A DNA stretch of 64,000 nt from a virus (lineage: Duplodnaviria > Heunggongvirae > Uroviricota > Caudoviricetes): positions 1-64,000 of the IMG/VR virus record IMGVR_UViG_3300028603_000027; one strand, given 5' to 3'. The notes under the pieces were generated by a model. That model was not told the origin of the DNA. It saw nothing but the letters and a program-made list of their open reading frames with translations, and did not search any database. Positions 6,394 through 58,546 of the stretch are shown here, piece after piece (within the stretch, counting starts at the first letter, position 1; every line of letters starts with the position of its first letter). Made by a program: the position numbers and the translations under genes.

Positions 6394-8106
6394 ATGTTCA
6401 ACCCACTTCTGATGGTAGACGGCTACAAGCTTGGACACCACAACCAATATCCTGAAGGGATGACTTACCTGTTTAGCAATTTTACAGCGCGAAGCAATAA
6501 AAACTTCAAGAAGATCGCGGCAGCGGAATTCTTAGATGATTTTGTAGTGGTATTTGGCACACAAGCTACAGTGTCCTATCTGAATGAGGTGTGGGAGAAG
6601 GAATTCTTTTCTAAGAAGAAAGAAGCTGTTGTAGATGAGTTTGCAAACATCGTTCGTATGTTTTTGAACGACAATTCTTTTACGGTGGAACATGCAGAAG
6701 CCTTGCACGATCTAGGCTATCTTCCAATTAAATTTCACTCTTTGAAAGAAGGGACTCTGTGTAAAGTGAATGTACCGTTCTTTACTTTGGAAAACACTCA
6801 CCCTGATTTCGCTTGGCTTGTCAACTACATTGAAACACAATTGTCTGCGATGCTTTGGAAGCCGATTACTTCAGCAACTATCGCACGGCATTATAAAAAG
6901 ATTTTGAACCGATATTACGAAAAGACATGCGACAATAAAATGGGCATGGAATTTATGGTGCATGATTTTTCGATGCGTGGCTTGTCTAATGTTTTTGATG
7001 CACATTTTTCTGGAATGGGCCATTTGACTTCTTTCAGCGGGAGCGATAACATTCCTGCTTTGGTTGGGGTGCGTAAATACTATGGATGGGACATTGAAAA
7101 AGAATTTTTAGCGGGTGGTGTTCCCGCAACAGAGCATTCAGTTACTTCCAGCAACATTCAATCCTTTGTTGTGACAGAAGGATGTGATGAACTTGAGGCT
7201 GAAAAGAAAACAATTGAATATTTGATTTCAAAATATCCCTCTGGTTTTCTTTCGTATGTTTCAGATACGTATGATTATTACGGAGTAATTTCAGAGGTGT
7301 TGCCATCTTTAAAAGACAAATTGATGGCTCGGGAAGGGAAATTTGTTGTTCGCCCTGACAGCGGTAATCCTATAGATATCATTTGCGGTTTGGATATTCC
7401 TACTGTAGGCGATTCCACAGCCGCTGCTTGGAATTTGTACGATCAAGTGTCGTGTGATACGCCGCACGGTGAACGTGGAGAGGATATTGTCTCAGGTGTA
7501 TTTCTAATCAACGGAGAATATCGTAACATCAAAATTGTAATTGATTGGAATCGTTACGACAAACAGTATTATTACACAGACGGTTATGAAATTATTTCAG
7601 ATGAAGTGGTTTCTCTGACACCGGAGATGAAGGGGTCGCTGCGTTGTTTGTGGGATGCCTTTGGCGGTACACTGAATGAAAAGGGTTATATGGTATTGGA
7701 TTCCCATATTGGAATTATCTATGGAGACAGTATCACCCCTCAGAGAATGCACGAGATTCTTGAGCGTATGAAGCAAATGGGTTTTGCTGCATCTAATGTT
7801 GTGTTCGGGGCAGGAAGTTTCACATATCAATATACGACACGAGATACCTTTGGCATGGCAATGAAGGCCACATATTGCGAAGTAAATGATGTTCCTGTCA
7901 AGTTGTTTAAAGACCCCAAAACAGGAGACGGCAGTAAGAAGTCTGCTAAGGGGATGTTGGTTGTTCAAGACGGTGTATTGGTGGACGACATGGTGTATGG
8001 AGAGTATTTGGGTCAAAAGAACAACTTGGAAGAAATCAATTCTACTCCTAAAGACACATTCGACGTAATTCGTCAACGGATTAACGAGGGATTAAATGCA
8101 AGTTGA
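6394..8106 (+). CDS. Nicotinamide phosphoribosyltransferase family protein (NadV/NAMPT-like; candidate Namat of NARP1)
   Basis: N-terminus MFNPLLMVDGYKLGHHNQYPEGMTYLFSNFTARS is the typical NAMPT start; 570 aa; the start codon is 14 nt after the Prs-like gene. Confidence 0.8.
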   Translation: MFNPLLMVDGYKLGHHNQYPEGMTYLFSNFTARSNKNFKKIAAAEFLDDFVVVFGTQATVSYLNEVWEKEFFSKKKEAVVDEFANIVRMFLNDNSFTVEHAEALHDLGYLPIKFHSLKEGTLCKVNVPFFTLENTHPDFAWLVNYIETQLSAMLWKPITSATIARHYKKILNRYYEKTCDNKMGMEFMVHDFSMRGLSNVFDAHFSGMGHLTSFSGSDNIPALVGVRKYYGWDIEKEFLAGGVPATEHSVTSSNIQSFVVTEGCDELEAEKKTIEYLISKYPSGFLSYVSDTYDYYGVISEVLPSLKDKLMAREGKFVVRPDSGNPIDIICGLDIPTVGDSTAAAWNLYDQVSCDTPHGERGEDIVSGVFLINGEYRNIKIVIDWNRYDKQYYYTDGYEIISDEVVSLTPEMKGSLRCLWDAFGGTLNEKGYMVLDSHIGIIYGDSITPQRMHEILERMKQMGFAASNVVFGAGSFTYQYTTRDTFGMAMKATYCEVNDVPVKLFKDPKTGDGSKKSAKGMLVVQDGVLVDDMVYGEYLGQKNNLEEINSTPKDTFDVIRQRINEGLNAS

Positions 8107-30914: not shown

Positions 30915-31829
30915 ATGCAAAGTGTTGACATCAACGGGAAGAAATATATTCTCGCAGAACAGGAAGGGATGATTAACATCACCTCTCAAAGCAAGAAAGA
31001 AATAGAAAGGCTTGAAGCTTCTTTTTGTACGGATATTGTGCCGTGCCTCGCAGAAGCCAATGCTGTATTGGCAGGCGGCGCTCTCACAAGTCTTTTTACT
31101 AACAAAGAAGTAAATGATTACGACATTTATTTTAAAAACGTAGAAGGCTTTCAAAGTATTATTAATGATATTTATGACACTCCTGAAAGCGGAAGCGTCT
31201 TGAGCAGTTATGATGTCATAGTAAATTTTGCCACTGATCGGAGTATCCTCTGCAAAGAGAAGTGGAGCGAAAATGCGATTCAATTCATCGTTTATAAAAT
31301 GTTCCCCGACATTCAAGACATTTTTAATGCTTTTGATTTTACTGTTAATATGTGTGCTTACGATTTTGCAACACAACAGATGTGGGCGCATCCAGATTTC
31401 TTGAAACACTGTTCACAGCGTTACCTCTCCTTTAATGGGAGAACAGATTATCCTGTTGTGTCAGCACTTCGGGTAATGAAATATACAGAACGAGGCTATA
31501 CAATATCTAAAGCAGAAATGCTTAGAATTCTCTTCACTATTGCAGCTAAGGAATATAAAGATTGGCAGAGTGTGAAAGAAGAAGTAGGTAGTATGTACGG
31601 AATCCCTGTTGACAAGCTATTTGACGAAACAAAAGAATTTAATCTGGAAGAAGTAGTGCTGCAACTGAACAATTGCGTAGCGTTAGACAAACCTAGGGTT
31701 ATGGCAGAAGCTTACGACACTAAAGATTTGGCGACGAAGTTCCCGCATCTTTTAGATCAAAAGTGGGCAGAAAATAATAACTTTTGGTGGGCGAAAGAGG
31801 CGTATGGGCAAGAACAAGTTCACCTCTAA
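30915..31829 (+). CDS. Pol-beta-superfamily nucleotidyltransferase domain protein
   Basis: The hG[GS]x9-13Dh[DE]h pattern is matched by AGGALTSLFTNKEVNDYDIYF. Confidence 0.4.
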   Translation: MQSVDINGKKYILAEQEGMINITSQSKKEIERLEASFCTDIVPCLAEANAVLAGGALTSLFTNKEVNDYDIYFKNVEGFQSIINDIYDTPESGSVLSSYDVIVNFATDRSILCKEKWSENAIQFIVYKMFPDIQDIFNAFDFTVNMCAYDFATQQMWAHPDFLKHCSQRYLSFNGRTDYPVVSALRVMKYTERGYTISKAEMLRILFTIAAKEYKDWQSVKEEVGSMYGIPVDKLFDETKEFNLEEVVLQLNNCVALDKPRVMAEAYDTKDLATKFPHLLDQKWAENNNFWWAKEAYGQEQVHL

Positions 31830-49092: not shown

Positions 49093-50112
49093 TTAACTAT
49101 AAGAAGAAAATAAAATTTGTGCCAAAGCTTCAGAAGCTAGCCCTTGCTTGAAACATTCTTCCAAATCAAACACTTCTTTGAATCGTTTCATAAACATTCC
49201 CAACTCCTTACCCTCTAGCCCTGTTACAGTTCGAGCTATATCTCCGTTCCACCACAACTTCATTTTAAGTTGTTCTAAATGTGCAGTAACTTCCTCAACA
49301 TATATCTCTCCCCATCTAGGAAAGACACGAAACGACTGTTGAAGAGCCAAAGTTTTAACCATTTCTTTCAGTTCAACATCATCAGGCCAAGGGTAGTAGA
49401 AATCTTCGCTTTTTGTCTCCTCACACCACCTCAAAAATTCATTATAAGTTTTTCTCTTAGAATCGCGTGTCCTAGCTTTATAGTTTCTATTATGTAGTAA
49501 GTAAATTTCAGGATTGAAATATTTACCGCTAGCTACAAACTTAAAAATATCTTCAAGATCGTTAAATCCCTTATTCCATTCTTCAAAAGAATAACCCATA
49601 AAAGGAAGGATTTCTGTCCAATCTGTGCTTATGATTTTCTCTGCATAAACATTATCGCCGTCTCGAAAAACATACTTCAATCCGTCGTGTCCAAACTTAA
49701 AGCCCATCTTATGTGCAATTCTACCCAAAAGATTTCCTAGATCATTAAAATCAAAATAATTGGCTGCTACATTTATGTTGTCAACAAATATAAAATCCAA
49801 TTGTACAATTTTAGAAGAATCTATAAAATTAACTTGATATGCAATGGAAACGACATCAGTGTTTCTTACAATCTTGCTCACTCTGGAATGTTTTTCTGCC
49901 AAGAAAAGGAAGTCTTCTATTGTAATACAAGACTTAGCTATTACAATGTCCAAATCTCCGAAATCTTCTTTATTTCTGTATGCCCTTACAATCTTAAAGT
50001 GATCGCCCTGTTTCAACCACATCCCTTCAATGAAGGATACAGTCTCAGCTTGAACTGAAGCATATTCTTCGTTAGAAAATCTTTCACTAAACGGAATTGC
50101 GTTTCCACCCAT
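49093..50112 (-). CDS. Hypothetical protein
   Basis: 339-aa ORF. A NKEDFGDLD stretch is faintly reminiscent of a ligase/NTase motif but is unconvincing. Confidence 0.4.
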   Translation of the reverse strand: MGGNAIPFSERFSNEEYASVQAETVSFIEGMWLKQGDHFKIVRAYRNKEDFGDLDIVIAKSCITIEDFLFLAEKHSRVSKIVRNTDVVSIAYQVNFIDSSKIVQLDFIFVDNINVAANYFDFNDLGNLLGRIAHKMGFKFGHDGLKYVFRDGDNVYAEKIISTDWTEILPFMGYSFEEWNKGFNDLEDIFKFVASGKYFNPEIYLLHNRNYKARTRDSKRKTYNEFLRWCEETKSEDFYYPWPDDVELKEMVKTLALQQSFRVFPRWGEIYVEEVTAHLEQLKMKLWWNGDIARTVTGLEGKELGMFMKRFKEVFDLEECFKQGLASEALAQILFSSYS

Positions 50113-50125
50113 ATTTACTCCTTGC

Positions 50126-51262
50126 TTATTCTAAAGGTTCCCACGTATTAGGGTCAACTTCTCGGATACGTAGACCGACAGGCTTGGTTGGGACTCCCGC
50201 ATCAGAGATGTCTTCGTATTCCACTTCAATCCATTTACCTACCACCAACTCCCGATTACCATACAGACGAAGGTTTACATTTGGGTCTGCATCTTTGCGC
50301 ATTTTAACCTTAAATTTAATTCCTTCTTTTAATGAGCAATGTAACACTGCTTCATTGTTTTTATCTTCTTCAGCTCGTTCAACATACGCTTCTACTGTGT
50401 CTCGATTTTTCAACTTCTGAGCATCATACGATCTTTTACCAAATTCGTAAAGCCCTTGTTGATTTCTCACTACAATACCTTCTTCTTTGTCAATCCCACT
50501 ACGAACGAAATGTTTCTGAACATCGCTCTCACTGAAAGCAAAGCTGCAAGGCAAAGCCACGAGACTGTTCAACGAAAACTGTCTGATAATGTCTGCGATA
50601 TAGCCTAGACGTTCGTTACGTGTAGAGAAGAATTCATTAGCCTTAGGAATATCATAAATCCAATACTGTAGGCGAGGAGTGTTTTCATTTTCCTTACGAA
50701 AGGCAGAAACAATTTCTTGGAGAGAAAGACCGCCTTTGTTCCTATTTCCTGCAAAAACTTCGCCATCCAATCCATACCAACTATCGCCTAGAATATCTTT
50801 CAGCTTTGCAATATCCTTTAAGATATGTTCCGGGATAGTGTAATCTTCTCCTGCTTTACTTTGGGCTTTTAAATCTGTATCCACCAAAAGTCGAAGACCA
50901 TCCAACTTCAGAGAGAAATAGCACGGATATGCAATTTTATGCCCTTGCTCATTGAAGTTTTGAAGCTTCATGGGCGTCATTTTTACTGAGGAGCGGGCTT
51001 CCTCTTCTGTTTTGAAATAACCCCGTTTGAGTTGTTTATCAAACTTGGCCTGCGCCTCTCGAACGGCCTGTTCTTCAGGGCTAGTTTCATTTGCCCTGCC
51101 TACGTTCTTCCCTTCTACTTTGATCGTCTTGGAAGTGATTTTTCCTCCTTTCATTCCATGACTCATGATGTAGGAATTTCCCTCTGCCTCAATTTCCCAA
51201 GTGCGAATTTCTCCTTTGCTTCCCTTAGAGTATAGAGTAGGCCATTGATTTGTCTCACTCAT
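50126..51262 (-). CDS. ATP-dependent DNA ligase
   Basis: Adenylation motif KLDGLR (KxDG); start set at MSETNQ after GGAGGTGAAA. Confidence 0.55.
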   Translation of the reverse strand: MSETNQWPTLYSKGSKGEIRTWEIEAEGNSYIMSHGMKGGKITSKTIKVEGKNVGRANETSPEEQAVREAQAKFDKQLKRGYFKTEEEARSSVKMTPMKLQNFNEQGHKIAYPCYFSLKLDGLRLLVDTDLKAQSKAGEDYTIPEHILKDIAKLKDILGDSWYGLDGEVFAGNRNKGGLSLQEIVSAFRKENENTPRLQYWIYDIPKANEFFSTRNERLGYIADIIRQFSLNSLVALPCSFAFSESDVQKHFVRSGIDKEEGIVVRNQQGLYEFGKRSYDAQKLKNRDTVEAYVERAEEDKNNEAVLHCSLKEGIKFKVKMRKDADPNVNLRLYGNRELVVGKWIEVEYEDISDAGVPTKPVGLRIREVDPNTWEPLE

Positions 51263-51572
51263 TTTCACCTCCGCCCACCAGTTCGTACTTTTCCAAGAAA
51301 TCTTCTTGATTCCATACAATAGCGTTATCGTTTTCATCAAAAACTAACATATCCCCAAGGAACAATACTTGCAGCACTCCGTTCTGGATAAAAGTAATTG
51401 TTATTGTATGCGTAGTATCTGCCAATTGCGGATTGTTTGCTACAACAGTTAAATAAACGCTAGTAGCCTTACTGTCGTATAGATTTTGAACGATGTCTCC
51501 AATAGCATCTGTATCTTCAAACAGTGCAGCTTCGACTACAGCATCTTTAGTTGTATAAGTTTGATAGTACAT
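51255..51572 (-). CDS. Hypothetical protein
   Basis: ORF only. Confidence 0.4.
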   Translation of the reverse strand: MYYQTYTTKDAVVEAALFEDTDAIGDIVQNLYDSKATSVYLTVVANNPQLADTTHTITITFIQNGVLQVLFLGDMLVFDENDNAIVWNQEDFLEKYELVGGGENE

Positions 51573-51833: not shown

Positions 51834-52235
51834 TTATTCTGCCTTCATCTTTCGCGTAGCGTTTAGAAATGTTTGCCGAACAAATTCATAACAGTATTCG
51901 TGAATGTCGTCTGTCTGGATACAATGATTTTCTTTTTCTTGGTCTTTCAAAAGATTGTGAAACAGAGAAACAGTTAGGCTTGTATCCCCATCCAAGGGAT
52001 AGATATATTCCTTCGCCTGCCGTGCAATAGTTTTGCCAAGTTTCCTCTCAAAATTATCTTGATTACAAACACTCCACTGTGCCTTTACTGTACGTGCTGC
52101 ATAATCTACTGTAAAAATAATAGTAATACCGTGCAGGTTATCGTGTAGACACAAAGGAAATGAATCGTAAACATCTGGTCGAATATAACGCACCACTTCA
52201 ATAATTTCAGGCTTCTTCATAGTTTTCTCCATCAA
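51834..52235 (-). CDS. Hypothetical protein
   Basis: ORF only. Confidence 0.4.
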   Translation of the reverse strand: MMEKTMKKPEIIEVVRYIRPDVYDSFPLCLHDNLHGITIIFTVDYAARTVKAQWSVCNQDNFERKLGKTIARQAKEYIYPLDGDTSLTVSLFHNLLKDQEKENHCIQTDDIHEYCYEFVRQTFLNATRKMKAE

Positions 52236-52473
52236 TAAATTTCACATAAATGTTGTTTTCAATCAAAATCTGTTCTAGGGAAGTTAGAGTGATTGTATAA
52301 GCCAAATCTCTATCTGTCAACAGCCCTTCGTCTTCTAATACAGCAATAAAACAAGCTCTCTCAGAGTACATGGGTTGTCTGTGACAAACAGATATGTCTT
52401 TTGAGAAATATTCATATTCATCCCACTCTGGAGAAAGTCCTGAAGAATAAAGTTCAAACGTATATGTTTTCAA
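52207..52473 (-). CDS. Hypothetical protein
   Basis: ORF only. Confidence 0.4.
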   Translation of the reverse strand: MKTYTFELYSSGLSPEWDEYEYFSKDISVCHRQPMYSERACFIAVLEDEGLLTDRDLAYTITLTSLEQILIENNIYVKFIDGENYEEA

Positions 52474-52477
52474 AATA

Positions 52478-52915
52478 CTACCCTTTATTTAAATTTTCAA
52501 ATTGTTGGAGGATTACTGTTTCTCCCACAGAACGATTATCTCTCAGTGCATCTCTTTTAATACACGTTTCCAAAGAAGTGTCCATTCTGAAAAATTCCAC
52601 TTCATATCCAAGCGTCTCCAAAAGGAATTTTACTTTATCCCGTTCTTTCTTTTTACAAAGCGTGTCAGAAATAATTATATTCCGACACAGTTCTTGTGCT
52701 CTATAAATCTCAGAGTGCCAATAAAAAGTTACTACGTCTTCCCAAGGAGAGAAAGGCTTGTAGCCATTCCATCCGTTTTCATGAAAGCCTGGAATAACTT
52801 CTGCTCGAATAACATCCCGTTCAATCCGTACAGCATATTCCGCACCATCCAGCACAGATTCTGCTAGAGTAGATTTACCAGACCCCGAAGGGCCGTAAAT
52901 AATCAATGCTTCCAT
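52478..52915 (-). CDS. Polynucleotide 5'-kinase (T4 Pnk kinase-domain-like)
   Basis: LIIYGPSGSGKSTLAE, RDVIRAEV and IIISDTL parallel the T4 Pnk motifs GCPGSGKST, RDDYR and IISDTNL. Start set at MEALIIYG. Confidence 0.6.
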   Translation of the reverse strand: MEALIIYGPSGSGKSTLAESVLDGAEYAVRIERDVIRAEVIPGFHENGWNGYKPFSPWEDVVTFYWHSEIYRAQELCRNIIISDTLCKKKERDKVKFLLETLGYEVEFFRMDTSLETCIKRDALRDNRSVGETVILQQFENLNKG

Positions 52916-52923
52916 TATATCTC

Positions 52924-54204
52924 CTAAGACACTGTTTCCATGTCTACAACATCTGCAAGCCCTTCCATTACCCGGAAGGGGTAACTTTTGCATTTGAAAA
53001 ACTTGGGGTTTGTTTTATTAGTGTCTACTCTGACAATAATACCTTCTCCGATCATTCCTGAAAACTGATGGTCTTCTCCAAGATGTTCAGGACGCTCCGT
53101 GAGCTTTTCCACCAACTCACGCAAGGCTTCTTCGTCTCCGTTGTAGATCATCTGAGGGTGAACTTCAAATGTGGATTCAATTCCTCTATTCTCACACCAT
53201 TGTTCCATTTCCTTTTGAGACAAATCAATGTTTTTACCATCAACAGTTTGCCGGGTTATCCGGTAAATGTGCCACTTGTATTCACCTTCTGTGCAACCGT
53301 AGTGAAACACATTGGTATTACCATATTTCTCTGTGTACCGCTTGTCTTTCAAAGCTTTTATGTCTCCATTAGGCATAATAGCCTTACCGTTGACAAAACC
53401 AACAATTTCTCCATACACGGTCATTCCATCTTCTAACAGAGGATAGATTTCTCTACCTACCTCGAAACGGAAAGATTCACTTCCATGAAAACCTTCTTTG
53501 TATTCTTGTTGTAGCGTGACATTTCTACTTCCAACCACCATTTCATAATCCCCTGTAAGAGGAAAGATAGGCGCAATCTTGTTAATCAGTTTCTTCCAAC
53601 GAGGAAGTTCTACTGTTCTTCGCATTTTGGCTACTCGCATGGAAGTGCCATGCCGCTTGTTATGAAAAGAAAGAAGAGCACCCACAGGAATGTTGGCCGC
53701 AAAGTGTCGGAAGTTATCGGTGTCAGAATGTTTTTCAAACAAAGGAAAAGCGTTAGCCTTTACTGTCTTGGTTCTTTGGTTTCCTATTGCCTTTCGAGCC
53801 TGTTCAGTGATGTATTTTTGACAAATTTTAACACCATTGAGTTCATCAAATTCTGTTCCAAGTTGAGTAGGCACTTCTCCGCAGAATGCCAAGCTCTCCA
53901 GAGAAGAGAAATACCCGCTACTACGAACTTTCAAAAAGGGTTGTGCTCGTACTTTACGATTATCATCAAAGAAACCTTTCTTATCAGAATCAGCATTCTT
54001 TTCAGAATTACGGAAAAGATTATTTTCTCGGCAATATTGTTCTGAAAGTTGAACATCTACAGGAAAGAATACACCTATAAACCCTACAGGCAAATCCTTT
54101 GAGACAACGACAGGTTCACCAAGTACGTAGGCAATTTGAATTCGATCTGCACCGGGGATAGTCTCTACTTTATCAATCTTAGCGATAATTGCTTTGTGTG
54201 CCAT
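52924..54204 (-). CDS. Putative RNA ligase (Rnl2-like nucleotidyltransferase)
   Basis: FHNKRHGTSMRV fits the KxHGT[NS] motif I of Rnl2-type ligases. Lies between the Pnk-like kinase and a metallophosphoesterase. Confidence 0.4.
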   Translation of the reverse strand: MAHKAIIAKIDKVETIPGADRIQIAYVLGEPVVVSKDLPVGFIGVFFPVDVQLSEQYCRENNLFRNSEKNADSDKKGFFDDNRKVRAQPFLKVRSSGYFSSLESLAFCGEVPTQLGTEFDELNGVKICQKYITEQARKAIGNQRTKTVKANAFPLFEKHSDTDNFRHFAANIPVGALLSFHNKRHGTSMRVAKMRRTVELPRWKKLINKIAPIFPLTGDYEMVVGSRNVTLQQEYKEGFHGSESFRFEVGREIYPLLEDGMTVYGEIVGFVNGKAIMPNGDIKALKDKRYTEKYGNTNVFHYGCTEGEYKWHIYRITRQTVDGKNIDLSQKEMEQWCENRGIESTFEVHPQMIYNGDEEALRELVEKLTERPEHLGEDHQFSGMIGEGIIVRVDTNKTNPKFFKCKSYPFRVMEGLADVVDMETVS

Positions 54205-54219
54205 ACTCTACCTCTTAAA

Positions 54220-54444
54220 TTAGCTCAGAAGAGCGGAAATCTTCGCAGCAATATTTTCCGCACGATTAGCCTCTTCCTTGCTCTTCTTTTGTTCAATCTG
54301 AAGACTATTAATCTCTGTTTCAATACGTGAGACGTTATCTTGTTGCTTCTGTACAATTCCTTCAAGGCGGTCAAGTACAGAAGTAAAATCTGAAATCACA
54401 TTATCAACAGTATCAGTCTTCTTAAAGATATTTTTAATTTCCAT
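54220..54444 (-). CDS. Small coiled-coil protein
   Basis: ORF only. Confidence 0.35.
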   Translation of the reverse strand: MEIKNIFKKTDTVDNVISDFTSVLDRLEGIVQKQQDNVSRIETEINSLQIEQKKSKEEANRAENIAAKISALLS

Positions 54445-54633
54445 TTAATTCTCCTTTATTGCGATTTTTAAAAGTTTTTCCAAGTGTTGAATTTGGTTTC
54501 TGCCTTCTCGAAGAGCATAAGATAAAATTTTATAATCTCTTTCTTCAATGGGCTTGCTACTTAGCGATATTGCTTCAAGCAGTGTAATCGCTTCTTCTAG
54601 TGTTGTCAACGATTCCTTAGATGTTTTCTGCAT
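54445..54633 (-). CDS. Small coiled-coil protein
   Basis: ORF only. Confidence 0.35.
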   Translation of the reverse strand: MQKTSKESLTTLEEAITLLEAISLSSKPIEERDYKILSYALREGRNQIQHLEKLLKIAIKEN

Positions 54634-55114
54634 TTTTACTTCTCAACTCTTTTACTACGTCTTCAAAAAGAATTGGCTTATATTCTGTGTGTTCCAGACA
54701 AACGTTTCTGTATCGCCCATCAGGAATAACATTGGAATGCATGTGTCCGTGTACACAAAACTTTCCTCTAAGCTCTACAGGATGGATAGGAGCATGAGAT
54801 AGCCAACATCCTTTCTTGTTATGCAAACTATACACTTTGTTATACGTTTGTGTCAACAGTGAAAAGTTTAGGCGCTCTACATCGTGATTACCAAGAATTA
54901 AAACTTTATATCCAGGCCACTTAGCAATTTCCTCTAAAGCTTCAGACGTAAACGCCACATCTCCAAGAAACATAACAGTATCACGTTTAGTGACAACTGA
55001 ATGATATTGTTCTTTTACAAATTCATCGTGCTCTTCCGCAGAAGCAAAAGGTCGATATTTATGGATATTCCTATGCCCTCTGTGCAAGTCACTTGTTACA
55101 AAAACTCTACTCAT
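54617..55114 (-). CDS. Calcineurin-like metallophosphoesterase
   Basis: Motifs SDLHRGH, FLGDVA and LILGNHDVE. Confidence 0.7.
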   Translation of the reverse strand: MSRVFVTSDLHRGHRNIHKYRPFASAEEHDEFVKEQYHSVVTKRDTVMFLGDVAFTSEALEEIAKWPGYKVLILGNHDVERLNFSLLTQTYNKVYSLHNKKGCWLSHAPIHPVELRGKFCVHGHMHSNVIPDGRYRNVCLEHTEYKPILFEDVVKELRSKNAENI

Positions 55115-55578: not shown

Positions 55579-55861
55579 CTGTAGACTCCTTTATTGGATA
55601 GTAATATGGCATTCCGTCCCAAGAGTGCCATCTCTTCACTCTCGTAAGCCAACGAATATTAGAAGTTTTCACTCCGCTACGGGCCTCCAGCACTACTGGA
55701 TGCCACGCAAACCAAAGTTCTTCTGCATCTATCGTACTTTCCTTCTTACAAAACGGGAATACTAGGAAGAAACAAAGTATTTGTAACCAAAACAACACAA
55801 AGAAAATAATGAATTCTTTTGACCCACTAAGAAATGCTTTTAAAAAATAAACTATATTCAT
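55571..55861 (-). CDS. Small membrane protein
   Basis: Hydrophobic N-terminus FIIFFVLFWLQILCFFLVFPF. Confidence 0.35.
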   Translation of the reverse strand: MNIVYFLKAFLSGSKEFIIFFVLFWLQILCFFLVFPFCKKESTIDAEELWFAWHPVVLEARSGVKTSNIRWLTRVKRWHSWDGMPYYYPIKESTDG

Positions 55862-57078
55862 TTCTCCTCCCTTTCTCTGTATGCTTCATTTACTTCCTTA
55901 ATCAATTTTACGGCTAGTTCTTTTAATACGGGCGAATCAACTGTTTGATTACACTCTCTATACATTTGCTGACAGACCCAAACGTTGTTGTTCACCAACT
56001 GCAAACCTAGCGTAGCTTCTTCCTTTCCGTCTGAGAGGTGGTAAACAAGATATTGCCCACTTGCCACGTGATACGCATATCCTGCAACACAATGATGCAT
56101 GATTTTACCTTCTTTGTCTAGCTGCTCTGTTGTTAAAATAGCAACAGCATTAGCATCTTCATAAGAAGATTCCTTAGGAATCCAAGAATTAGTTAGATCA
56201 AACATTCTATCTTGATCTTGTTTAACCCTCCATAAGTCTCTTTCTCTTTGGGCGAGGTTGTCGTGAAAATCCAACAAAATGTTTAAATCATTTAGAATAT
56301 TATTGGGAACTCTTTCTTGCAGTCTTTGAGCCATTACTAAAGAGTCTCCTAAAATCGTAACAGTCCTTTCAATAGGGCCGAGTCGTTTTATATGAGCTAC
56401 AGGCCATTGCTTCATATATTTAAGAATATTCTTCACTTCTTCTCTGCGTCTACGCCGCACCACAGTTGCGAATATTTCAAAGAAATTAGAATTATAAGAT
56501 TTAATTTCTTCGGCAAAATCGGGTAAAGGTACTTTATCTACGATTCTAGAAATTTGCTTGTTTCTATGGTGGGAATTTTTAGCAAGATTCTTCCACAAAC
56601 CCTTACCATATAAATCTTTCATCTCTTGAGGTGATAAGCCTGTAGTAAGGATAAGAGGAAGAATGTTAGTTTGATTATCTTCTAGGGCTTGCGTCAGCAC
56701 ATCTCTGTGTTTATAGATTTTAGCTACAGCAGGGAAATGTACAGATTGTTTTTTACGTCTTCCGTACATACTGACTAAACGTTCATTCGGCCTCACTACT
56801 TTCTCAAAGAAGGTTGCCCAAGCAAATTTATACAGGAGACGAGGGGGTCTTCCCATATTATTATTCACTGCTTGATTCATTTCTTTAGAATAATAGAAGG
56901 TTGGAGAATCAAAACTAAATCGTGCGGAGTTCAACCACTCTTTCACCCTGCCTAGCCTAACAAAACAGCCTTCAATCCAATGTGTTCCGTTGGAGACTTT
57001 GGCCTTAAAACCATTAGGGTAAACAGAAATAATTTCTACAGTAATTTTAACATCGTTTTTGACACTTGTAGAACACAT
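55858..57078 (-). CDS. Hypothetical protein
   Basis: 406-aa ORF with no recognisable motif. Confidence 0.45.
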   Translation of the reverse strand: MCSTSVKNDVKITVEIISVYPNGFKAKVSNGTHWIEGCFVRLGRVKEWLNSARFSFDSPTFYYSKEMNQAVNNNMGRPPRLLYKFAWATFFEKVVRPNERLVSMYGRRKKQSVHFPAVAKIYKHRDVLTQALEDNQTNILPLILTTGLSPQEMKDLYGKGLWKNLAKNSHHRNKQISRIVDKVPLPDFAEEIKSYNSNFFEIFATVVRRRRREEVKNILKYMKQWPVAHIKRLGPIERTVTILGDSLVMAQRLQERVPNNILNDLNILLDFHDNLAQRERDLWRVKQDQDRMFDLTNSWIPKESSYEDANAVAILTTEQLDKEGKIMHHCVAGYAYHVASGQYLVYHLSDGKEEATLGLQLVNNNVWVCQQMYRECNQTVDSPVLKELAVKLIKEVNEAYREREEK

Positions 57079-57595: not shown

Positions 57596-58010
57596 TCTCT
57601 TTAAACTTCTCCACGGCTACACCATATTTTCTCAAGTAGTCCAATCCCTCTGAGCATCTATATTCATGTTTAAAAATAAATTTTACTATCCCTGAATCTA
57701 CAATATCAATAGCACAAAATTTGCAGCAAGCATGCGTACAAAACAAGGTGGCTCCAACAGCAGTTTCATTAGATTTAATCAAACCCATCAACGCATTCTT
57801 TTCGCTATGCCTCACTTCAGGTCGTGTAACGTTGTTCTCATCTTCCAGCGGGCCATCAATGTGCTCTGGCAGCGCATTGTAGCCACAAGAAATTATCCTA
57901 TTGTTTTTAACTATCACGCTTCCCACTTGAAGTCTCTCCCCAACGGAGCATTGGGCAAAAGCTTCTGCACACTCCATGTATGCTTTTTTATGCTTTGTTT
58001 TCATACTCAT
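57585..58010 (-). CDS. dCMP deaminase
   Basis: HSEKNAL (H[AS]E) and a cysteine-rich stretch CTHACCKFCA (the expected second zinc-ligand region); 141 aa. Confidence 0.55.
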   Translation of the reverse strand: MSMKTKHKKAYMECAEAFAQCSVGERLQVGSVIVKNNRIISCGYNALPEHIDGPLEDENNVTRPEVRHSEKNALMGLIKSNETAVGATLFCTHACCKFCAIDIVDSGIVKFIFKHEYRCSEGLDYLRKYGVAVEKFKENDI

Positions 58011-58546
58011 CCTTCTAAATATCTTTGAAACCTGGATTGAACTTCATCATACCATAAGTTGTAAATTGGTATATTATTTTGTTGAGCTAATACAACGGCT
58101 GTCCTAGTCCCACCACTGATTTCTCCACTCTTTGTCTCCTTCGCCCAACATATTAAAAACTTGCTTGGAGTTTCTAAATCCTTTCCTAATACTTGATAAC
58201 AATTGCGTGTATGTAAAGCCTTGGCCCCATCTGAGAGTTTATCCCAAGCAGGGTGGACTTCACTTGCTAAAGCCTCTGCTTCGTGCCAGTTATCCCAAAA
58301 CTTAGGGAACAGTAAACTTTCCGTAGAATAAAGGTTATTAAAACCGTACCAAGGGAGATATATTTCAGGGGTAATATCTTCTGTTGTGCCTCCTTGAAAA
58401 GCTAAGTCAGCCCCATCAGCACCGCCTGACCTAAGAATCCAATTATCTTCGGATAGTTTTAAGGATATTTGTTTTACTATTCCGCATATATGTTCAGGTG
58501 TTTCTCTGCTTCCTACTCCGGTAAAATATTTCATTTGTTTCTCCAA
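58007..58546 (-). CDS. DprA/Smf-like SLOG-clan Rossmann-fold protein
   Basis: YFTGVGSRETPEHI...ILRSGGADGADLAFQGG matches the DprA/SLOG pattern tGSR...SGgAxGiD. Confidence 0.4.
   Translation of the reverse strand: MEKQMKYFTGVGSRETPEHICGIVKQISLKLSEDNWILRSGGADGADLAFQGGTTEDITPEIYLPWYGFNNLYSTESLLFPKFWDNWHEAEALASEVHPAWDKLSDGAKALHTRNCYQVLGKDLETPSKFLICWAKETKSGEISGGTRTAVVLAQQNNIPIYNLWYDEVQSRFQRYLEG

What the first reader, a model, noticed from the sequence alone, without database searches (positions are those of the whole stretch)
52478..55114. RNA-repair style cassette: T4-Pnk-like kinase, Rnl-like ligase and metallophosphoesterase
The kinase shares the T4 Pnk kinase-domain motifs GSGKST, RD..R and ISDT. 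The adjacent 426-aa protein has a KxHGTS lysine-adenylation-type motif as in Rnl2-family RNA ligases. A calcineurin-type phosphoesterase (DxH, GD, GNHD) follows after two small ORFs. Together these supply the 5'-kinase, 2',3'-phosphatase and ligase activities needed to heal anticodon-nuclease-cleaved tRNAs, as the T4 Pnk/Rnl1 pair does against PrrC. With four or five phage tRNAs, a Y RNA/Rsr candidate and a pol-beta nucleotidyltransferase (30915-31829) in the same genome, the phage looks heavily invested in countering RNA-targeting host immunity.
Basis: partly seen in the sequence, partly recalled or inferred. Interest (0 to 1): 0.6.

Follow-up and report, generated by a model that had tools for sequence, protein, structure and literature searches.

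The report
Phage RNA-break repair gene cassette
An uncultivated phage carries, in one tight operon, a polynucleotide kinase that has lost its usual phosphatase half, a nick-sealing RNA ligase and a separate metal-dependent phosphoesterase; this is a rearranged version of the known phage toolkit for mending cut RNA, interesting but not surprising.

Summary
Five co-directional minus-strand genes lie at 52478-55114: metallophosphoesterase (MPE), two small ORFs, a 426-aa ligase, and a kinase.

- **Ligase.** The motif I lysine K183 is invariant in 30 homologues. The AlphaFold model matches Naegleria RNA ligase over its full length. It is therefore Rnl5-type (N-terminal OB plus adenylyltransferase), not Rnl2.
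- **Kinase.** It most likely starts at ATG 52915 (145 aa). It keeps every residue essential in T4 Pnk but lacks the HAD 3'-phosphatase domain.
- **Relatives.** This ligase sits beside a Pnk-type kinase in about two-thirds of related phage loci, usually a full kinase-HAD Pnkp. All 8 kinase-only loci with enough flank carry an MPE, against 3 of 11 full-Pnkp loci. Those MPEs come from at least two lineages only 27-30% identical.
- **Against the MPE link.** The family is common in phages that have no such kinase or ligase, and its fold does not reveal its substrate.

Best reading: an RNA end-healing and sealing module in which an MPE replaces the HAD domain in trans. The tRNA/anticodon-nuclease target is unproven. 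This is a new variant of a known kind, of moderate interest.

The parts
54617..55114 (-). Stand-alone binuclear metallophosphoesterase (165 aa, aq_1665-like). Candidate 2',3'-cyclic phosphodiesterase / 3'-phosphatase for end healing.
54445..54633 (-). Small ORF, 62 aa, unknown function. It overlaps the MPE stop codon.
   Evidence: No Pfam, NCBIfam or PHROG hit. Two small ORFs occupy the same position in L103 and L104, but without detectable sequence similarity.
54220..54444 (-). Small ORF, 74 aa, unknown function. The sequence looks helical, possibly coiled-coil (my reading of the sequence, not a computed prediction).
   Evidence: PHROG 2380 (unknown function) 4e-10. Its ATG follows directly after the stop codon of the preceding ORF.
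52924..54204 (-). ATP-dependent RNA ligase of Rnl5 architecture (426 aa): N-terminal OB domain plus adenylyltransferase domain, with no C-terminal module.
   Evidence: PF21189 plus PF09414, and PHROG 968 1e-49. Invariant K183/H185/G186/T187/S188 (motif I), E266, E387/G388/R392, and K404/K406 in 30 homologues. The AlphaFold model has pLDDT 89.7. Foldseek top 13 hits are NgrRnl, E 5e-17 to 7e-15, target TM 0.68-0.72, covering the full length.
52478..52915 (-). 5'-OH polynucleotide kinase, kinase domain only (145 aa; the ORF is open back to 52993). No HAD phosphatase domain.
   Evidence: AAA_33 5e-15. PHROG 505 4e-25, matching only positions 3-142 of 295. In the alignment, kinase-only proteins end exactly at the kinase/HAD boundary of full-length Pnkp. 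The family profile hits T4 Pnkp 1ltq at 1e-77. K14, S15, D34, R37, D84, R125 and E59 correspond to T4 K15, S16, D35, R38, D85, R126 and E57. An RBS AGGAG lies 6 nt before ATG 52915.
50126..51340 (-). Context, not part of the cassette proper: ATP-dependent DNA ligase 1.1 kb downstream. It is syntenic in the closest relatives.
   Evidence: PF01068 2e-10 and PHROG 114 5e-66. It lies downstream of the kinase in L004, L103, L037 and L076.

Best explanation
This is a three-enzyme module for healing and sealing broken RNA, expressed as one operon: MPE, two small ORFs, ligase, kinase.

Proposed mechanism. [quoted passage not shown]
1. The Mn-type metallophosphoesterase opens and removes the 2',3'-cyclic or 3' phosphate. 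This step is inferred.
2. The kinase-only Pnk homologue phosphorylates the 5'-OH. This is inferred from complete conservation of the T4 Pnk catalytic residues.
3. The Rnl5-type ligase seals the break. It is adenylylated on K183, transfers AMP to the 5'-phosphate, and joins it to the 3'-OH. This probably happens where the two ends are held in a duplex or nicked context, such as a nicked tRNA or rRNA helix.

In most related phages the first two steps are done by one bifunctional kinase-HAD Pnkp. Here the HAD phosphatase half is missing, and a separately encoded MPE most likely supplies that activity in trans. That makes the cassette a split analogue of the bacterial kinase-MPE-ligase fusion CthPnkp.

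The likely biological purpose is to undo host RNase damage during infection. The actual RNA target is unknown.
For: Shown:
- The ligase has the Rnl5 fold and invariant nucleotidyltransferase motifs.
- The kinase carries all T4-essential residues and lacks a HAD domain (residue roles from PMC2831316).
- The MPE has all metal ligands.
- Gene junctions overlap or are at most 15 nt apart, and no minus-strand terminator was found within the cassette.

Comparative evidence:
- Of 25 non-redundant ligase loci with at least 4 kb on both sides, 16 have a Pnk-type kinase near the ligase. Eleven are full kinase-HAD Pnkp and five are kinase-only (for 24 of them, plus L103).
- The pairing also occurs in mycobacteriophage Porky, gp87 and gp90.
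- An MPE lies near the ligase in 8 of 8 kinase-only loci that have enough flank, against 3 of 11 full-Pnkp loci. One-sided Fisher P is 0.002, or 0.013 on the strict set of 5/5 against 3/11.
- Kinase-only loci sit at four or more places on the ligase tree.
- Their MPEs belong to at least two lineages only 27-30% identical to each other, while the ligases are 50-71% identical to the window's. This suggests repeated recruitment of an MPE.
- Gene order differs between loci. In L018 it is ligase, kinase, small ORF, MPE.
- Bacillus phage PBC2 fuses the kinase to an HD phosphohydrolase next to the same ligase family. The phosphoesterase partner is therefore interchangeable.

Precedent:
- The MPE domain of CthPnkp and lambda phosphatase hydrolyse 2',3'-cyclic phosphates (PMC2190708).
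- Calcineurin-like and HD phosphatases have been proposed as partners of RNA ligases in some jumbo phages (PMC7824862).
- A separate ATP-dependent DNA ligase is present, so this ligase is not needed for ordinary DNA sealing.
Against: - The MPE family is not specific to this context. Of its 80 closest viral relatives, 76 have no Pnk-type kinase and no such ligase within 10 kb. They sit mostly beside DNA polymerase A, a putative 5'-3' exonuclease (assigned from the sequence and phage annotations, not a domain search), DNA ligase or dCMP deaminase.
- 948 sequenced phages carry the MPE, including phages with a full Pnkp.
- An MPE also accompanies some full-Pnkp loci.
- The MPE lacks the GDxxDR arginine that CthPnkp needs for monoesterase activity (PMC2190708).
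- The locus counts are not corrected for phylogeny. The trees are unbootstrapped neighbour-joining trees.
- Characterised Rnl5 ligases seal duplex nicks and their physiological role is uncharted. DraRnl loss affects genome reassembly after irradiation (PMC5397189).
- No activity was measured here.
Confidence: 0.5

Rival explanations
1. The kinase and ligase form a genuine RNA end-healing and sealing pair, but the MPE is only a neighbour. On this view it is a general phage phosphoesterase acting on nucleotides, signalling molecules, proteins or DNA ends. Removal of the 3' phosphate is left to a host enzyme, or the breaks repaired already carry a 3'-OH.
For: - 76 of 80 close viral MPE homologues have no kinase or ligase nearby. 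Their usual neighbours are DNA polymerase A, a putative 5'-3' exonuclease, dCMP deaminase, PhoH and ClpP.
- 948 phage records carry the family, mostly annotated as phosphoesterase or Ser/Thr phosphatase.
- The window's MPE nests inside this general clade.
- Structure does not favour an RNA-end phosphatase.
Against: - All 8 kinase-only loci with enough flank have an MPE, against 3 of 11 full-Pnkp loci.
- Two or three divergent MPE lineages occupy the same context.
- The genes are arranged for translational coupling, in one operon with the ligase and kinase.
- In L018 the MPE sits directly after the kinase.
Confidence: 0.25
2. The module works on DNA or on RNA-DNA junctions during phage replication or repair, not on host-damaged RNA. 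The kinase and MPE would clean 5'-OH and 3'-phosphate DNA ends, or the MPE would nick single-stranded DNA. The Rnl5 ligase would seal nicks whose 3' end is ribonucleotide-terminated, for example primer remnants or ribonucleotide patches. All of this would run alongside the nearby DNA ligase.
For: - Loss of DraRnl sensitises Deinococcus to radiation and delays genome reassembly. Rnl5 enzymes accept DNA in the 5'-phosphate and template strands (PMC5397189).
- T4-type Pnkp acts in 'nucleic acid repair' generally (PMC2831316).
- The cassette sits among DNA-metabolism genes: DNA ligase, endonuclease VII, an SprT-like protein, a DprA-like protein and dCMP deaminase.
- The DNA ligase is syntenic with the kinase in the closest relatives.
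- The MPE family usually neighbours replication genes.
- The nearest NCBIfam model is the DNA-repair nuclease PdeM, though far below its cut-off (PMC7826289).
Against: - Rnl5 ligases strictly need RNA at the 3'-OH end (PMC5397189).
- The phage has a dedicated DNA ligase.
- The commonest partner of this ligase family is a T4-type Pnkp, the classic RNA-repair healer.
- The same genome invests in tRNAs and in a Ro/TROVE-like protein with a possible Y-like RNA.
Confidence: 0.2

Closest known systems
Mycobacteriophage Cluster E (Cjw1, Porky) Pnkp plus RNA ligase pair
   Same: Same ligase family: 29.6% identity over 92% of the window ligase. The gene is annotated RNA ligase and lies three genes from a polynucleotide kinase, Porky gp87 and gp90. 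The Cjw1 and Omega Pnkp enzymes were characterised biochemically (Zhu et al. 2004, cited in PMC2831316).
   Different: There the healer is a full bifunctional kinase-HAD Pnkp of 313 aa. Here the kinase has no HAD domain, and an MPE is encoded in the operon.
Rnl5 nick-sealing RNA ligases (Deinococcus DraRnl, Naegleria NgrRnl)
   Same: N-terminal OB domain plus C-terminal adenylyltransferase domain, with the protein ending shortly after motifs IV and V. Best structural match by far: Foldseek E 5e-17, target TM 0.72. The N-terminal domain profile also hits NgrRnl residues 9-68. Phage homologues of DraRnl were noted in 2007 (PMC1807946).
   Different: Only about 15% identical. About 85 residues longer (426 aa against about 340). 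Scores 16 bits against a 151-bit cut-off for the DRB0094 equivalog model. Its motif I has His where the NgrRnl D172A mutant listed implies Asp (my reading). Activity is untested.
T4 Pnkp / Rnl1 tRNA repair against PrrC
   Same: Same logic: a 5' kinase, a 3' phosphatase and an ATP-dependent ligase encoded by a phage. The kinase is homologous to the T4 Pnk kinase domain and keeps all six essential residues (PMC2831316).
   Different: The ligase is not Rnl1, the tRNA-loop specialist. Rnl1 is only a weak core match (E 5e-4). The phosphatase is not the DxDxT domain. No anticodon nuclease target is known for this phage.
Bacterial Pnkp (Clostridium thermocellum CthPnkp) of the Pnkp-Hen1 system
   Same: Uses the same three chemistries, with a binuclear metallophosphoesterase as the 2',3'-phosphatase (PMC2190708, PMC1920235).
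   Different: CthPnkp is one fused polypeptide, and its phosphatase is lambda-phosphatase-like with the GDxxDR arginine. Here there are three separate proteins, and the MPE is aq_1665-like without that arginine. Hen1 was not looked for.
Kinase-HD end-healing enzymes
   Same: Bacillus phage PBC2 gp158, next to the same ligase family, is a Pnk-type kinase fused to an HD domain. This is another case where the HAD phosphatase is replaced. From my own knowledge, Runella HD-Pnk is a characterised enzyme of this type.
   Different: That case is a fusion with an HD phosphohydrolase, not a separate MPE.

Membership tests
Rnl5 RNA ligase clade (DraRnl/NgrRnl) | N-terminal OB domain fused to a C-terminal adenylyltransferase domain, with no C-terminal appendage | tested here: met
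   PF21189 covers residues 6-85 and PF09414 covers 183-405. The protein ends 20 residues after motif V. Foldseek alignment to NgrRnl spans both domains with target TM 0.72.
Rnl5 RNA ligase clade (DraRnl/NgrRnl) | Motif I lysine nucleophile plus nucleotidyltransferase motifs III, IV and V | tested here: met
   K183, E266, E387/G388/R392 and K404/K406 are invariant in 30 homologues of 51-71% identity. Assignment of residues to motifs is by inspection.
Rnl5 RNA ligase clade (DraRnl/NgrRnl) | Passes the curated sequence model for the family (TIGR02306 RNA_lig_DRB0094) | tested here: not met
   16 bits against a cut-off of 151. The protein is a distant structural relative, not an equivalog.
Rnl5 RNA ligase clade (DraRnl/NgrRnl) | Mn-dependent sealing of duplex nicks with an RNA 3'-OH strand | not testable with these tools
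   Needs a biochemical assay.
T4 Rnl2 family | Adenylyltransferase domain followed by the Rnl2-specific C-terminal domain | tested here: not met
   There is no C-terminal domain. T4 Rnl2 matches only the core (E 7e-6, target TM 0.41), far behind NgrRnl.
T4-type bifunctional Pnkp | P-loop 5'-kinase domain with the T4-essential residues Lys15, Ser16, Asp35, Arg38, Asp85 and Arg126 | tested here: met
   K14, S15, D34, R37, D84 and R125 are present, plus E59 corresponding to Glu57. G8, S12, G13, K14, R33, D34, R37, E59, R121 and R125 are invariant in 17 sequences. The profile hits T4 Pnkp at 1e-77.
T4-type bifunctional Pnkp | C-terminal DxDxT (HAD) 3'-phosphatase domain | tested here: not met
   The protein ends at the kinase/HAD boundary. 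PHROG 505 matches only positions 3-142 of 295. The only HAD hit in the window is an NT5C-type deoxynucleotidase at 17107-17715.
Binuclear metallophosphoesterase superfamily | DxH, GD, GNH(D/E), H and GHxH metal-binding motifs | tested here: met
   D9, H11, D52, N76, H77, H107, H124 and H126 are invariant. They are conserved in all three cassette-associated MPE lineages.
CthPnkp / lambda-phosphatase clade of RNA-end phosphoesterases | Close structural or sequence similarity, plus the GDxxDR arginine needed for monoesterase activity | tested here: not met
PdeM / P. putida MPE DNA-repair nuclease | Passes TIGR04123, and is encoded with an Lhr-Core helicase, an exonuclease and a DNA ligase | tested here: not met
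aq_1665-like minimal MPE | Structural match to PDB 1xm7 | tested here: met

The most novel reading that the evidence does not exclude
The small aq_1665-type metallophosphoesterases are polynucleotide 2',3'-cyclic-phosphodiesterases / 3'-phosphatases. They have repeatedly displaced the HAD domain of phage Pnkp. If so, this cassette gives the first functional context for an orphan structural-genomics fold and for a gene carried by about 950 sequenced phages. [quoted passage not shown]
Probability: 0.3. Interest if true: 0.55.

Novelty: new variant of a known kind. Interest (0 to 1): 0.36.

Why it matters
Phage RNA repair is the classic counter-measure to host nucleases that cut tRNA. Interest in it has grown as many new defence systems turn out to cleave RNA.

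This cassette shows a modular version of that toolkit: a kinase stripped of its phosphatase, plus a separately encoded metallophosphoesterase and an Rnl5-type ligase.

If the comparative signal holds (loss of the HAD domain always accompanied by an MPE), it does two things:
- It assigns a testable activity to a very common phage gene of unknown function.
- It points to the natural substrates of Rnl5 ligases, whose physiology is described as uncharted.

If the signal does not hold, this is simply another phage Pnk and RNA ligase pair.

Tried and rejected
- **Nucleotide similarity.** Megablast of the 2.6-kb region against 50,697 phage records found nothing. No close cultured relative exists. The best ligase match is Alishewanella phage Slicko01 at 47.6% protein identity, and that phage has no kinase or MPE within 7 kb.
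- **Ligase against solved structures by sequence.** The single-sequence search found nothing. The profile search gave only a marginal hit to the NgrRnl N-terminal domain. Structure prediction was needed.
- **A missed phosphatase elsewhere in the window.** A profile of the Pnkp HAD domain found only an NT5C deoxynucleotidase at 17107-17715. I rejected it as the missing 3'-phosphatase.
- **PdeM.** The NCBIfam hit is far below its cut-off. Membership rejected.
- **RlaP (RNA-ligase-associated pol-beta NTase).** Neither 49093-50112 nor 30915-31829 returned any Pfam family at the E-value limits used, and neither has a match among solved structures.
- **The two small ORFs.** No informative family was found. 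Their position is conserved in L103 and L104, but their sequence is not.
- **Promoter and terminator scan.** It showed only that no minus-strand terminator interrupts the cassette. The promoter-like hits were not used as evidence.
Full report
**What is there**

Between about 42 and 60 kb the window is transcribed on the minus strand. ORF listing and GC skew both show this.

At 55114-52478 five genes follow each other with overlapping or nearly abutting junctions:
- a 165-aa metallophosphoesterase (MPE, 54617-55114);
- a 62-aa ORF (54445-54633);
- a 74-aa ORF (54220-54444);
- a 426-aa ligase (52924-54204);
- a kinase.

The kinase ORF is open from 52993. However, an AGGAG sequence overlapping the ligase stop codon lies 6 nt upstream of ATG 52915. 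All homologues also begin at that methionine. The protein is therefore most likely 145 aa.

No minus-strand terminator-like site falls inside the cassette.

**The ligase**

- Pfam finds an RNA_ligase adenylyltransferase domain and an N-terminal PHA02142 OB domain.
- PHROG 968 'RNA ligase' matches end to end at 1e-49.
- In an alignment of 30 homologues (51-71% identical) the motif I residues K183, H185, G186, T187 and S188 are invariant. So are E266, E387/G388/R392 and K404/K406, which I assign to motifs III, IV and V by inspection.
- An AlphaFold model built on that alignment is confident (pLDDT 89.7, pTM 0.86).
- Its 13 best Foldseek matches in the PDB are all Naegleria gruberi RNA ligase (E 5e-17 to 7e-15, target TM 0.68-0.72). 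These alignments cover both domains.
- T4 Rnl2, REL1, archaeal Rnl3 and T4 Rnl1 follow at E 7e-6 or worse, and match through the adenylyltransferase core only.

The family should be corrected, though. This is the Rnl5 architecture of DraRnl and NgrRnl, not Rnl2.

It is a distant member: about 15% identity, about 85 extra residues, and far below the cut-off of the curated DRB0094 model.

According to PMC5397189, Rnl5 enzymes seal duplex nicks whose 3'-OH strand is RNA, occur in bacterial viruses among other taxa, and have uncharted physiological roles. In Deinococcus, loss of the enzyme delays genome reassembly after irradiation.

**The kinase**

- It matches AAA_33 and PHROG 505 'polynucleotide kinase'. 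Only the first half of the PHROG profile is matched.
- I aligned it with eight other short kinases and eight full-length Pnkp proteins from related loci. It stops exactly where the DxDGT HAD phosphatase domain of the long proteins begins.
- The family profile hits T4 Pnkp at 1e-77, and the Pnkp1 of a bacterial Pnkp1-Rnl-Hen1 repair complex at 4e-60.
- The window protein has K14, S15, D34, R37, D84 and R125. These are counterparts of the six residues reported as essential for T4 kinase activity. It also has E59, the counterpart of Glu57 (PMC2831316).

It is therefore a credible 5'-OH polynucleotide kinase, but not a bifunctional Pnkp.

All 40 listed cultured-phage hits to it (41 records in total) fall in genes annotated as polynucleotide kinase or Pnkp/PseT, apart from one hypothetical protein and one unannotated record. 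Most carry the full 5'-kinase/3'-phosphatase name. No kinase-only form is evident among isolates.

**The metallophosphoesterase**

- All metal-binding residues are invariant.
- The model is excellent (pLDDT 96.4).
- It lacks the arginine of the GDxxDR motif, which CthPnkp needs for monoesterase activity. It keeps the GNH histidine, which is important for cyclic phosphodiesterase activity (PMC2190708).

Structure and sequence alone therefore do not say what it hydrolyses.

**Comparative genomics**

I fetched loci around homologues of the ligase from viral and metagenome collections and from assemblies. I then searched them with profiles for the kinase, the HAD domain, the MPE and the DNA ligase.

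Among the 25 non-redundant loci with at least 4 kb on both sides of the ligase:
- 11 carry a full kinase-HAD Pnkp, usually immediately downstream;
- 5 carry a kinase-only gene;
- 9 carry neither.

The same ligase-Pnkp pairing is seen in mycobacteriophage Porky. The ligase is thus habitually partnered with an end-healing enzyme. This is the strongest argument that the module deals with breaks carrying 5'-OH ends.

The informative contrast concerns the MPE:
- Every kinase-only locus with enough flank has an MPE near the ligase. There are eight: the window, L103, L104, L004, L018, L064, L066 and L076.
- Only 3 of 11 full-Pnkp loci do.
- One-sided Fisher P is 0.002. On the strictest flank criterion (5/5 against 3/11) it is 0.013.

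Three further observations bear on this:
- Kinase-only loci are scattered over at least four positions of a neighbour-joining ligase tree.
- The MPEs involved are not orthologous. The MPEs of the window, L103 and L104 are 52-57% identical to generic phage MPEs. They are only 27-30% identical to the L004/L064/L066/L076 clade, and 37% to L018. The ligases of these same loci are 50-71% identical to the window's.
- Gene order also differs. In L018 it is ligase, kinase, an 82-aa ORF, then MPE.

In Bacillus phage PBC2 the kinase next to this ligase family is fused to an HD phosphohydrolase instead.

Together these observations suggest that the phosphoesterase partner of the kinase is interchangeable (HAD, HD or MPE). 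They also suggest that an MPE is recruited when the HAD domain is absent.

**Evidence against the MPE link**

I ran the reverse test. Of the 80 closest viral relatives of the MPE, 76 have neither a Pnk-type kinase nor this ligase within 10 kb. Their commonest neighbours are DNA polymerase A (26 loci), an HNH protein, a putative 5'-3' exonuclease, a lambda-phosphatase-like protein, dCMP deaminase and DNA ligase. These neighbour names come from reading the cluster representatives and from annotations of cultured phages, not from a domain search.

The family is found in 948 cultured-phage records, including Acinetobacter T4-like phages that have a full Pnkp. MPEs also accompany a minority of full-Pnkp loci.

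The family as a whole therefore does something that does not depend on an RNA ligase. The window's copy belongs to that general clade.

The locus counts are not phylogenetically corrected, and the trees are unbootstrapped.

**Interpretation**

I consider it well supported (about 0.85) that the kinase and ligase form an end-healing and sealing pair.

That the MPE supplies the missing 3'-end healing is the best single explanation, but only about even odds.

Two rivals remain:
- The MPE is a bystander.
- The whole module serves DNA or RNA-DNA junction repair. It sits beside the nearby DNA ligase (50126-51340), endonuclease VII, an SprT-like protein and a DprA-like protein. This reading is consistent with the Deinococcus phenotype.

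The specific claim that the cassette rescues anticodon-nuclease-cut tRNAs is not supported by anything beyond analogy. Characterised Rnl5 ligases are nick sealers, not tRNA-loop specialists like T4 Rnl1.

**Novelty**

The concept is known:
- T4 Pnkp/Rnl1.
- The Pnkp and RNA ligase genes of mycobacteriophages.
- The fused kinase-MPE-ligase CthPnkp (PMC2190708, PMC1920235).
- A comparative review noting that calcineurin-like and HD phosphatases accompany RNA ligases in a few jumbo phages (PMC7824862).

What appears new is the split arrangement: a kinase-only Pnk, an aq_1665-type MPE in trans and an Rnl5-type ligase. Also new is the comparative pattern linking HAD loss to MPE presence. I rate it a new variant of a known kind, of moderate interest.

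Noticed in passing
window 13255-13368 (+), 13507-14892 (+), 14968-15215 (+): A full-length but sub-threshold match to the Y RNA-like family YrlA (RF02553, 37.7 bits against gathering score 69, E 5e-6 in a 2.9-kb search). It lies about 140 nt upstream of a 461-aa DUF2828/DUF7788 protein (PHROG 850 'RNA-binding protein', 5e-149). That protein is followed by three tRNA genes (Arg-TCT, Gly-TCC, Leu-CAA). This looks like a possible phage Ro/TROVE-like protein with a Y-like RNA.
   Followed up: partly
window 49093-50112 (-): A 339-aa protein with a GDLDIV motif, which from memory resembles a pol-beta-type nucleotidyltransferase signature. PHROG 24943 'DNA polymerase' scores 5e-43. It has no Pfam family and no solved-structure match. 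A 36%-identical homologue lies 5 kb from the ligase and Pnkp in L025. Its role, and any link to RNA repair, is unknown.
   Followed up: partly
It has strong hits to PHROGs of unknown function (phrog_18122, 3e-69) and a weaker hit to a 'nucleotidyltransferase' PHROG (7e-13). It has no Pfam family and no solved-structure match.
   Followed up: partly
L003 5283-6278 (Bacillus phage PBC2 gp158): This gene is annotated hypothetical. It is a Pnk-type kinase (AAA_33, 7e-17) fused to an HD domain (6e-6), immediately downstream of the phage's Rnl5-like ligase. The ligase itself is mis-annotated '2'-5' RNA ligase'.
   Followed up: partly
L034 8399-9052 and 10001-10735: The ligase gene of this viral contig is detected as two pieces (residues 3-228 and 185-426) separated by about 950 bp. 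This may be an intron, intein or homing-endonuclease insertion.
   Followed up: no
L004 4714-5988: A 424-aa glutathionylspermidine-synthase-like protein (Pfam GSP_synth) sits directly upstream of the ligase in the 61%-identical relative, and an acetyltransferase sits next to that locus's MPE.
   Followed up: no
L018 11736-11984 and 12727-13329: An 82-aa cysteine-rich ORF lies between the kinase-only gene and the MPE. A YfbR-like HD protein (weak hit, 3e-5) lies two genes further downstream.
   Followed up: no
window 6394-8106 (+); 55858-57078 (-); 58007-58546 (-): The phage also encodes a nicotinate/nicotinamide phosphoribosyltransferase (NAD salvage), a PcfJ-like protein and a DprA/SLOG-like protein. 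Relatives of the ligase locus often carry NAPRTase and ribose-phosphate pyrophosphokinase next to the ligase.
   Followed up: no
window 51834-52473 (-): Two ORFs of unknown function (88 and 133 aa) just downstream of the kinase are conserved in the same position in L004, L103 and L104. No family matched them.
   Followed up: no
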